Shown: piece after piece, positions 51,130 to 51,484 of the stretch
How the letters are laid out: each line of letters opens with the position of its first letter
Numbering within the stretch: the stretch's first letter is position 1
Assembly: GCF_001677475.2 (NCBI RefSeq)
Contig: NZ_CP015229.1
Strand: one strand, 5' to 3'
DNA length: 64,000 nt
Source: Escherichia coli
GTDB taxonomy: Bacteria; Pseudomonadota; Gammaproteobacteria; Enterobacterales; Enterobacteriaceae
Notes under the pieces: model-generated
What the model saw: the letters and a program-made list of their open reading frames with translations, nothing else
Told to the model about the DNA's origin: nothing
Databases searched by the model: none
Translations under genes and position numbers: made by a program

Positions 51130-51484
51130 TTACATTATCCTTGAGATTGCAGCAAATATGCTTACTTTGACAGTACTAAGGCACTGCCATCACTCCAGTG
51201 AATTTTAAATTCCTCAGGAAAAAATATAATATTAAAGCACGAAACGTTAAACACCTTATTTTTACTTAAATATGTTTTTAGGCATACTTAATTGATTCGT
51301 ATTGCGTATGATTGGTGGTGAAGTTTGTGAGGATTGCTGGGGGGGTGTACAATCATATTGATGATTTAAATGTGTGCTGTTGTATAAATATCTTTGGGCA
51401 ATCAAAAAGAGGCCAGTGAACAGATAAATTTGAACATAGAAGCTAAAATAATTTACTGTATTTCTTTGTTTATTGGGGAAGTGA
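51130..51484. promoter_or_regulatory. AT-rich divergent control region between the fimbrial operon and pabC
   Basis: 355-bp AT-rich intergenic region upstream of both divergent transcription units; contains a G7 tract at 51339..51345; no promoter motif confirmed. Confidence 0.45.

What the first reader, a model, noticed from the sequence alone, without database searches (positions are those of the whole stretch)
51130..51484. AT-rich divergent control region with no linked regulator and a G7 tract
The 355-bp region between the major pilin gene and divergent pabC is strongly AT-rich, which would favour H-NS binding. No GATC-pair module and no invertible element with flanking recombinase were seen, and no regulator gene is in the island. 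A G7 run at 51339..51345 is the only simple repeat that could support slipped-strand switching. How the operon is expressed is therefore an open question, and it may be cryptic under laboratory conditions.
Basis: inference. Interest (0 to 1): 0.5.

Follow-up and report, generated by a model that had tools for sequence, protein, structure and literature searches.

The report
Fimbrial–pabC control region with variable G-run
This is an ordinary AT-rich promoter region shared by a horizontally imported fimbrial operon and the housekeeping gene pabC; its G7 run is one allele of a mutation hotspot, but nothing shows it works as an on/off switch in this strain.

Summary
Positions 51130-51484 form a 355-bp gap between a major pilin gene (minus strand) and pabC (plus strand). 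It has 32.7% GC, the lowest of any 355-bp stretch in the window. It contains no GATC, no convincing inverted repeat and no regulator ORF, and it has a G7 run at 51339-51345.

- **Origin:** the strain has an E. coli backbone, but about 44992-51929, including the whole gap and the 5' end of pabC, is imported. It is 99-100% identical to the locus in E. ruysiae-type strains and absent from 5,426 complete E. coli genomes.
- **G-run variation:** across 47 copies from other assemblies, the G-run is the only hypervariable spot. Alleles are G7TGT, G7TTGT, G6TTGT, G5AGTTGT, G5ATTTGT, G4AG3TGT, G9, G10 and G11.
- **Limits:** the run is stable within sublineages and is absent (GAGG or G4) in diverged copies. 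It lies in the least conserved part of the gap.
- **Position:** it falls inside the spacer of a promoter-like motif facing pabC, not the pilin gene. That motif scores no better than chance.

The best reading is a typical H-NS-prone fimbrial control region with a slippage and dislocation hotspot. A true phase switch remains a minority possibility.

The parts
51130..51484 (.). 355-bp AT-rich divergent intergenic region between the major pilin gene and pabC. It lies entirely inside the imported segment.
   Evidence: ORFs. GC is 32.7%, the lowest in the window. It is 98.3-100% identical to the E. ruysiae-type copies.
51339..51345 (+). G7 run (C7 on the pilin-coding strand). It is one allele of a hypervariable G-run; the hotspot zone spans about 51338-51349.
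   Evidence: Alleles in 47 related copies. Enrichment of changes has Poisson P of about 3e-10.
51325..51353 (+). Sigma-70-like motif TTGTGA-17 nt-TACAAT facing pabC. The G-run lies in its spacer, which would be 17, 18 or 19 nt depending on the allele. It is a candidate only.
   Evidence: it is the top plus-strand score (11.0), but shuffles give a mean top score of 9.4 and a 95th percentile of 12.5. TACAAT becomes GTCAAT in the diverged haplotypes.
51223..51250 (-). Sigma-70-like motif TTAACG-16 nt-TATATT facing the pilin gene. The predicted start is near 51216, giving a leader of about 87 nt. It is a candidate only.
   Evidence: score 8.1, not above shuffles. The -35 part lies in the invariant block 51242-51282.
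51184..51220 (.). 37-nt block that is invariant across all 14 haplotypes, including those about 9% diverged. It contains the perfect palindrome GAATTTTAAATTC at 51200-51212 and may be an operator or leader element.
   Evidence: Alignment; palindrome I5. The leader fold is not significant (z = -1.6).
51421..51430 (+). CAGATAAATT, the only match within two mismatches (8/10) to the H-NS high-affinity motif TCGATAAATT in the gap.
   Evidence: The motif itself is recalled from the literature and was not re-checked here.
50596..51129 (-). Major fimbrial subunit (pilin) gene, 177 aa.
   Evidence: FimA, LpfA and major-subunit families, all below their cutoffs. Pfam PF00419. The exact protein occurs in 423 blocks of the collection.
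49844..50521 (-). Periplasmic chaperone gene, 225 aa. It contains the window's only other G7 run, at 50301-50307.
47241..49814 (-). Outer-membrane usher gene, 857 aa, of the Fim/Lpf/Sti-like type.
   Evidence: PRK15193 874 bits, StiC-like 866, LpfC 853, FimD 742, all below the curated cutoffs.
46217..47257 (-). Putative tip adhesin of 346 aa (331 or 340 aa in other gene calls), with no Pfam family.
45144..46210 (-). Two FimG/FimF-like minor subunit genes, at 45686-46210 and 45144-45671.
51485..52294 (+). pabC (aminodeoxychorismate lyase). The gene is chimeric: the first 445 nt or so follow the E. ruysiae-type donor, and codons 1-62 are only 53% identical to E. coli PabC.
44992..51929 (.). Imported segment, from the 3' end of fabF through the whole fimbrial operon, the gap and the 5' end of pabC. 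Mosaic patches extend to about 44764 on the left and about 52253 on the right.
   Evidence: Informative-site analysis against E. coli 14EC047 and an E. ruysiae-type locus. Segment identities. Flanks are 98.3-98.9% identical to E. coli.

Best explanation
The 355-bp gap is a conventional AT-rich divergent promoter region. It arrived as part of a roughly 7-kb segment exchanged by flank recombination between E. ruysiae-type Escherichia and an E. coli lineage.

**What the gap has to do**
- It has to drive two units. One is the six-gene Fim/Lpf/Sti-like chaperone-usher operon on the minus strand. The other is pabC on the plus strand, and probably the downstream genes yceG, tmk, holB and ycfH.
- The fimbrial side has no dedicated regulator. 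By inference it is controlled by nucleoid proteins and global regulators, most probably H-NS silencing, as in other cryptic E. coli chaperone-usher operons.
- The pabC side must stay active. This limits how completely the region can be silenced.

**What the G7 run is**
- It is a lineage-specific state of a mutation hotspot. An ancestral GGGG(G)ATTTG was lengthened by substitutions at the ends of the run, the pattern expected from template dislocation. It then changed by +/-1 slippage.
- This gave G6, G7 and interrupted alleles, and G9-G11 in one sublineage.
- In this window the run is short, interrupted by a T, and fixed in its lineage. Here it acts at most as a small tuning element, changing a spacer from 17 to 18 nt. 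It does not act as a fimbrial on/off switch.

**Shown versus inferred**
- Shown: the anatomy, the import, the hotspot statistics and the allele distribution.
- Inferred: the promoters, the role of H-NS and the mutational mechanism.
For: **Anatomy and absence of specialised switches**
- Anatomy.
- No GATC, inverted-repeat switch, tandem repeat, regulator ORF or Rfam family.

**Import**
- None of 5,426 complete E. coli genomes holds the island.
- The flanks are 98.3-98.9% identical to E. coli.
- The island is 99-100% identical to loci whose tmk and holB are only 87-92% identical. One of these is CP112983, which is E. ruysiae (PMC10434276).
- Breakpoints are mapped.
- A syntenic but only 52-66% identical operon lies between fabF and pabC in Citrobacter braakii.

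**AT-richness is a family trait**
- All 43 related operons have 31-42% GC upstream, and none has a G/C run of 7 or more.
- H-NS precedent: PMC3559732 and PMC3966885.

**Hotspot**
- At least 7 events fall in about 12 columns, against 5 segregating columns in 405 elsewhere, P of about 3e-10.
- Different alleles occur on otherwise identical 415-nt backgrounds.

**Against a switch in this strain**
- G7TGT occurs in all 5 copies on an E. coli background, and G9 in all 6 copies of its sublineage.
- Diverged haplotypes have CAGGGGATTTGG or CAGAGGATTTGG.
- The zone 51323-51375 is the least conserved part of the gap.
- The only promoter-like motif that includes the run faces pabC.
Against: - No expression or binding data exist. 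Both promoter calls score within the range of shuffled sequence, so the position of the run relative to the real promoters is unknown.
- The related F9 operon has its transcription start 251 nt upstream of the pilin ATG (PMC3966885). A long fimbrial leader or a distal promoter overlapping the run is therefore not excluded.
- Real phase-variable tracts also show interrupted alleles in sister taxa and stable alleles across many isolates. Examples are the Bordetella fim C-stretches C6TC3 and C9TC8, and fimX C7 versus C8 with different transcript levels (PMC1891110). The pattern seen here therefore does not rule out function.
- G9-G11 alleles are within the length range of known contingency tracts.
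- Only one weak H-NS motif match is present.
Confidence: 0.6

Rival explanations
1. The G/C run is a genuine slipped-strand contingency element. Length changes alter the spacing inside or next to a promoter. The affected promoter could be the pabC-facing TTGTGA/TACAAT motif, a distal fimbrial promoter, or an activator site. The result would be heritable and reversible switching or graded tuning of fimbrial and/or pabC expression, as with the Bordetella fim C-stretch or the H. influenzae hifA-hifB TA repeats.
For: - The run is by far the most variable site of the gap.
- Alleles G9, G10 and G11 exist.
- All alleles keep the flanking hexamers 17-19 nt apart.
- On the pilin-coding strand it is a C-run upstream of a fimbrial major-subunit gene, like the Bordetella C-stretch. 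There, C7 versus C8 changes the fimX transcript level, and interrupted alleles occur in sister species (PMC1891110).
- The local chance expectation of such a run is 0.005.
Against: - The window allele is only G7 followed by T, and it is invariant in its lineage.
- G9 is invariant in 6 samples.
- G10 comes from a contig with 2.6x coverage, and G11 from a single assembly, so both could be homopolymer errors.
- The run is not kept in diverged island copies, and the -10-like hexamer is destroyed there.
- No minus-strand promoter-like motif includes the run.
- None of 43 related operons has such a run.
- The operon is independently truncated in several strains, which suggests relaxed selection.
- Switching pabC and essential downstream genes on and off is biologically implausible (inference).
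Confidence: 0.15
2. The run is a functionless mutational hotspot and the fimbrial operon is a decaying, essentially unexpressed passenger. The region matters only as the pabC promoter, and variation at the run is neutral or slightly deleterious noise.
For: - The zone around the run is the least conserved in the gap.
- Substitutions interrupt the run in several lineages.
- The usher or a minor subunit is truncated or deleted in L005, L006, L079, L080, L084, L085 and L091.
- Promoter-like motifs are at chance level.
Against: - The operon is intact in the window and in most copies, and is 99-100% conserved between species backgrounds.
- It was successfully transferred into and retained in an E. 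coli lineage. The PabC allele that accompanies it is listed in 55 blocks of the collection.
- Invariant blocks in the pilin-proximal half of the gap suggest constraint on fimbrial control sequences.
Confidence: 0.2
3. The allelic diversity at the run is largely a sequencing or assembly artefact of homopolymers.
For: - Homopolymer lengths are error-prone.
- L067 (G10) has 2.6x coverage.
- L096 (G11) is a single draft assembly.
Against: - Most alleles differ by substitutions (G5AG, G4AG3, G5ATTT, G6TT), not by length.
- These alleles recur in independent assemblies: G5AGTTGT in 5, G7TTGT in 8, G9 in 6 and G7TGT in 5.
- They are consistent with linked SNPs.
Confidence: 0.05

Closest known systems
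H-NS-repressed cryptic chaperone-usher fimbrial promoters of E. coli, such as F9, Yad, Yeh and Yfc (Korea et al. 2010, cited in PMC3559732; F9 in PMC3966885)
   Same: - An AT-rich upstream region with no dedicated regulator gene in the operon.
- The gamma-type gene order of pilin, chaperone, usher, then adhesin and minor subunits.
- Lower GC than the host backbone.
- A probable long leader.
   Different: - H-NS binding and de-repression were not tested here.
- This operon is not one of the 38 catalogued E. coli types, and no complete E. coli genome carries it.
- It shares its control region with a housekeeping operon, pabC to holB, whose own promoter came in with the island.
Bordetella fim2, fim3 and fimX promoter C-stretch (PMC1891110)
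   Same: - A homopolymeric C run, on the coding strand, upstream of a fimbrial major-subunit gene.
- Length alleles of +/-1 and interrupted alleles among related lineages.
- Alleles that are mostly stable within lineages.
   Different: - The Bordetella tract lies inside an experimentally defined promoter, between the BvgA site and the -10 element. It is usually C10-C20.
- Here the run is G7 in the window (G9-G11 only in one sublineage) and 210 nt from the pilin ATG.
- It has no mapped promoter, and it is not conserved in diverged copies.
Haemophilus influenzae hifA-hifB divergent promoter with TA repeats (cited in PMC9820224)
   Same: A repeat located in the spacer between -35 and -10 elements, within a divergent intergenic region next to a chaperone-usher fimbrial gene.
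   Different: - There, dinucleotide repeats sit in overlapping promoters of two fimbrial transcription units and give on/off switching.
- Here a mononucleotide run sits in a chance-level motif that faces a housekeeping gene.
Type 1 fimbrial fimS invertible switch and the pap-type Dam/Lrp GATC switch
   Same: Both control gamma- or pi-type chaperone-usher operons of Escherichia from the region upstream of the major subunit gene.
   Different: - Here there are no flanking inverted repeats with a recombinase.
- There are no GATC sites.
- There is no papI/papB-like gene.

Membership tests
H-NS (xenogeneic) silenced fimbrial control region | DNA markedly more AT-rich than the host genome | tested here: met
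   The gap has 32.7% GC and the operon 44.9%, against 51-53% in the flanks.
H-NS (xenogeneic) silenced fimbrial control region | Horizontally acquired DNA | tested here: met
   The segment is absent from 5,426 complete E. coli genomes. It is 99-100% identical to E. ruysiae-type loci while the flanks are E. coli-like.
H-NS (xenogeneic) silenced fimbrial control region | High-affinity H-NS nucleation motifs | tested here: inconclusive
   One 8/10 match to TCGATAAATT lies at 51421. The window average is 1.3 such matches per kb.
H-NS (xenogeneic) silenced fimbrial control region | H-NS occupancy and de-repression in an hns mutant | not testable with these tools
   This needs ChIP or EMSA and reporter assays.
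Slipped-strand (simple-repeat) phase-variable promoter | A repeat tract long enough for high-frequency slippage; about 9 or more for G/C runs in known contingency loci (own knowledge) | tested here: not met
   The window has G7 followed by T. G9-G11 occur only in one E. ruysiae-type sublineage.
Slipped-strand (simple-repeat) phase-variable promoter | The tract lies within or immediately next to the core promoter of the regulated gene | tested here: inconclusive
   The tract lies in the spacer of TTGTGA-17-TACAAT facing pabC, but the motif score is within the shuffle range. No minus-strand motif includes it. No transcription-start data are available.
Slipped-strand (simple-repeat) phase-variable promoter | Tract-length polymorphism among closely related strains | tested here: inconclusive
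   Length and substitution alleles differ on identical backgrounds. Within sublineages, however, G7TGT occurs in 5 of 5 copies and G9 in 6 of 6.
Slipped-strand (simple-repeat) phase-variable promoter | The repeat is retained across orthologous loci | tested here: not met
   Diverged haplotypes carry CAGGGGATTT or CAGAGGATTT. None of 43 related operons has a G/C run of 7 or more.
Slipped-strand (simple-repeat) phase-variable promoter | Within-population length heterogeneity and reversible switching of expression | not testable with these tools
   This needs read-level or amplicon data and reporter assays.
Invertible-element (fimS-type) switch | Inverted repeats flanking a promoter segment, a site-specific recombinase gene, and both orientations seen in populations | tested here: not met
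   The best inverted repeat is 23 nt and 74% complementary. The island has no recombinase ORF. All related copies are colinear.
Dam/Lrp (pap-type) epigenetic switch | Two GATC sites in Lrp-binding modules upstream of the pilin gene, plus papI/papB-like regulators | tested here: not met
   No GATC lies between 50844 and 51931, and there are none in 40 copies of the gap. The gap has no small regulator ORF with a plausible identity.
Gamma-type (Fim/Lpf/Sti-like) chaperone-usher fimbrial operon | Usher, PapD-like chaperone, Fimbrial-domain major and minor subunits, and an adhesin in one operon | tested here: met
   NCBIfam and Pfam hits. All equivalog scores are below the curated cutoffs, so the operon is not a named type. 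It is not EFER_1138, which is sigma clade.

The most novel reading that the evidence does not exclude
The G/C run is a bona fide slipped-strand contingency element in an Escherichia chaperone-usher fimbrial control region. Its length, G6 to G11, would set the spacing of divergent promoter elements and so give heritable, reversible tuning or switching of the fimbrial operon, possibly coupled to pabC. The mechanism is known from Bordetella, Haemophilus and Neisseria but is not established for Escherichia fimbriae.
Probability: 0.12. Interest if true: 0.6.

Novelty: new member of a known kind. Interest (0 to 1): 0.3.

Why it matters
If the ordinary reading is right, this adds one more regulator-less, probably H-NS-silenced fimbrial operon to the Escherichia repertoire. 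Two points make it useful.

- **A clean case of import:** the adhesin operon moved from a cryptic-clade species (E. ruysiae type) into E. coli by flank recombination. The event also swapped the promoter and 5' end of a housekeeping gene, pabC.
- **A measurable hotspot:** a G-run can be seen growing and shrinking among natural isolates. This offers a simple system for testing how homopolymer runs arise in enterobacterial promoters, and whether they begin to act as tuning elements.

If the minority reading is right, it would be a first example of repeat-mediated control of a chaperone-usher operon in Escherichia.

Tried and rejected
**Possible switches and elements, all negative**
- Rfam scan of 44500-52500 at E <= 1: nothing in the gap, only a sub-threshold RmaA-like hit at 45094-45177.
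- Inverted repeats and tandem repeats: nothing convincing.
- GATC sites: none.
- Small ORFs in the gap as hidden regulators: only 22-35-aa ORFs and an antisense 128-aa ORF.
- Fold of the predicted 5' leader: z = -1.6, not significant.

**Comparisons that gave nothing usable**
- Footprinting against the syntenic Citrobacter braakii gap: no alignable conservation.
- PWM promoter scoring: the best motifs on both strands are not above shuffles, so promoter positions are offered only as candidates.
- Search for G/C runs upstream of 43 related operons, to test for a family-wide mechanism: none of 7 or more.
- Metagenome scan for further tract alleles: only one low-coverage contig.

**Identity hypotheses that were rejected**
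- The operon as the 'EFER_1138' ancient type of Wurpel et al.: rejected, because EFER_1138 is sigma clade.
- E. albertii as the initial guess for the host: rejected, because the flanks are 98-99% identical to E. coli and the donor type is E. ruysiae.

**Side checks**
- pabC being called 231 aa in some strains: checked, and it reflects only a gene-caller start choice; the ORF is intact.
- One look-up of encoding contigs duplicated an earlier one.

Full report
**1. The observation**

The minus strand carries a six-gene chaperone-usher operon:
- two FimG/FimF-like minor subunits, at 45144-45671 and 45686-46210;
- a 346-aa adhesin-like protein, at 46217-47257;
- the usher, at 47241-49814;
- the chaperone, at 49844-50521;
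- the major pilin, at 50596-51129.

On the plus strand, pabC starts at 51485 and is followed by yceG, tmk, holB and ycfH. The gap 51130-51484 is 355 bp with 32.7% GC, against 50.7% for the window. It contains the most AT-rich 355-bp stretch of the 64 kb.

The G7 run lies at exactly 51339-51345.
- At window scale a G7 is unremarkable: 2 are observed against 4.8 +/- 2.6 expected.
- Given the local composition, only 0.005 would be expected in the gap.

- No GATC occurs between 50844 and 51931.
- There are no tandem repeats.
- The best inverted repeat is weak, at 23 nt and 74% complementarity.
- There is no recombinase or regulator gene, and ORFs in the gap are short and unconvincing.
- No Rfam family matches.

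**2. Where the region comes from**

- No complete E. coli genome out of 5,426 contains the operon or the gap.
- Yet the window's flanks are 98.3-98.9% identical to E. coli.
- The exact pilin protein occurs in 423 blocks of the public collection, always between pabC and fabF in the places shown.
- Most of those loci have tmk and holB only 87-92% identical to the window, while their operon and gap are 98-100% identical. One of them, CP112983, is Escherichia ruysiae (PMC10434276).
- Informative sites show the window follows the E. ruysiae type from about 44992, in the 3' end of fabF, to about 51929, inside pabC. Mosaic patches extend a little further.

The whole gap and the first 445 nt or so of pabC were therefore imported with the operon. 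PabC residues 1-62 are only 53% identical to E. coli PabC.

A syntenic operon, 52-66% identical at the protein level, lies between fabF and pabC in Citrobacter braakii ATCC 51113. Its gap cannot be aligned with this one.

The usher scores highest against Fim/Lpf/Sti-type models, but below every curated cutoff. It is not the sigma-clade EFER_1138 type of Wurpel et al..

The gap is not only a fimbrial control region. It must also contain the promoter that now drives pabC.

**3. The G-run in 47 other copies of the gap**

Among the closely related haplotypes, the 415 aligned positions have five segregating sites outside the run. Inside a 12-column zone there are five segregating columns and at least seven mutational events (Poisson P of about 3e-10).

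The alleles, read between GGATTGCT and ACAATCAT, are listed below.

| Allele | Copies | Notes |
|---|---|---|
| G7TGT | window + 4 | all on an E. coli background |
| G7TTGT | 8 | |
| G6TTGT | 1 | |
| G5AGTTGT | 5 | |
| G5ATTTGT | 3 | |
| G4AG3TGT | 1 assembly | fetched twice, as L005 and L093 |
| G9T | 6 | one sublineage |
| G10T | 1 | metagenome contig at 2.6x coverage |
| G11T | 1 | |

- Two sets of alleles sit on otherwise identical backgrounds: G7TTGT with G6TTGT, and G4AG3TGT with G9T and G11T.
- Haplotypes about 9% diverged carry CAGGGGATTTGG or CAGAGGATTTGG, so they have no long run.
- The likely history is an ancestral G4-5ATTTG lengthened by substitutions at the ends of the run (A to G, T to G), then changed by +/-1 indels. 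This matches template-dislocation and slippage mutagenesis at homopolymers. That reading rests on established knowledge and is an inference here.
- The alleles are nevertheless stable within sublineages: 5 of 5 are G7TGT and 6 of 6 are G9.
- The zone 51323-51375 around the run is the least conserved part of the gap.
- By contrast, blocks 51184-51220 and 51242-51282 are invariant even in the diverged copies. The first of these contains the palindrome GAATTTTAAATTC.

**4. Position relative to promoters**

- The only promoter-like motif that includes the run is TTGTGA-17-TACAAT at 51325-51353, on the plus strand and facing pabC.
- The natural alleles would make its spacer 17, 18 or 19 nt.
- It is the best plus-strand PWM hit (score 11.0), but shuffled sequence gives a mean top score of 9.4 and a 95th percentile of 12.5.
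- Its -10 hexamer is destroyed in the diverged haplotypes.
- The best minus-strand motif is TTAACG-16-TATATT at 51250-51223 (score 8.1). It would place the run about 120 nt upstream of the fimbrial transcription start.
- The run is 210-216 nt from the pilin ATG and 140-146 nt from the pabC ATG.
- The related F9 operon starts transcription 251 nt upstream of its pilin gene (PMC3966885). A long fimbrial leader or a distal promoter near the run therefore cannot be excluded.

**5. How it most likely works**

The fimbrial side resembles the many regulator-less, AT-rich chaperone-usher operons of E. coli that are cryptic in the laboratory and repressed by H-NS (PMC3559732, citing Korea et al. 2010; direct H-NS binding shown for F9 in PMC3966885).

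- Supporting this, all 43 related operons retrieved from other Enterobacterales have 31-42% GC in the 600 nt upstream of the pilin gene.
- The island as a whole has 44.9% GC in a 51-53% backbone.
- This is analogy, not a test. Only one 8/10 match to the H-NS motif is present.
- The pabC side has to remain active, which limits how completely the region can be silenced.

I read the G-run as a mutational hotspot that at most fine-tunes spacing. In this strain it is short, followed by T, and fixed.

**6. Rivals**

- **A genuine slipped-strand tuning or switching element (about 15%).**
  - For: it would fit the hotspot statistics and the G9-G11 alleles. It would also fit the parallel with Bordetella fim C-stretches, where C7 versus C8 changes the fimX transcript level and sister species carry interrupted tracts (PMC1891110).
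  - Against: the tract is stable within lineages and not conserved, and no fimbrial promoter motif lies at the run. None of the 43 related operons has such a run. The operon has been truncated repeatedly in other strains.
- **A purely neutral hotspot in a decaying operon (about 20%).** This differs from my preferred reading mainly in denying any expression of the operon.
- **Assembly artefact (about 5%).** This is unlikely. Most alleles differ by substitutions and recur in independent assemblies.

**7. Verdict**

The thing itself is an ordinary member of a known kind. Two side results are modestly interesting: the inter-species import, which also replaced the pabC promoter and 5' end, and the natural allelic series at a G-run. 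Interest is 0.3.

Noticed in passing
window 44992-51929 (mosaic patches at 44764-44866 and up to about 52253): The fimbrial island, the gap and the 5' end of pabC were imported into an E. coli backbone from an E. ruysiae-type donor by homologous recombination in fabF and pabC. This left a chimeric pabC. None of 5,426 complete RefSeq E. coli genomes has the island.
   Followed up: yes
L012 (Citrobacter braakii ATCC 51113) 3509-11953: A syntenic orthologous six-gene operon (52-66% aa identity) lies between pabC and fabF, so this chromosomal site for the operon type is old. No Escherichia representative genome in the GTDB species set matched the usher.
   Followed up: partly
window 45094-45177 (+): There is a sub-threshold Rfam hit to the Erwinia sRNA RmaA (30.7 bits against a gathering score of 57, E = 0.03). 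It covers the 58-bp fabF/minor-subunit gap, which is 100% conserved in all ten full-length loci. It is probably just a bidirectional terminator.
   Followed up: no
window 50301-50307: The window's only other G7 run lies inside the chaperone gene, as C7 on the coding strand. The chaperone ORF is intact (225 aa) in every locus where it is complete.
   Followed up: partly
L005, L006, L079, L080, L084, L085, L091: The operon is independently damaged in several strains. L005 has an internal usher deletion of about 640 bp. L006 has a 125-aa truncated minor subunit. Five other loci have usher gene calls of 545-818 aa. This suggests the operon is dispensable in some lineages.
   Followed up: partly
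window 51219-51224 (A6 run next to the predicted pilin -10): This is a second small multi-hit site. Position 51221 is A to C in one lineage and A to G in another, position 51222 is A to T, and position 51225 is T to C in the diverged haplotypes. On the minus strand it is the T-run at the predicted fimbrial transcription start.
   Followed up: no
window 46217-47257 (-): The 346-aa putative tip adhesin has no Pfam family and only a faint C-terminal fimbrial-domain match. Its start is called differently (331, 340 or 346 aa) in different assemblies, and it overlaps the usher stop by 17 nt. It is the most variable gene of the operon between strains (96.7-100% identity).
   Followed up: no
window, whole: GATC is over-represented in the window as a whole (251 sites against 215 +/- 14 in shuffles) but is completely absent from a 1.1-kb stretch spanning the gap (50845-51930).
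   Followed up: no
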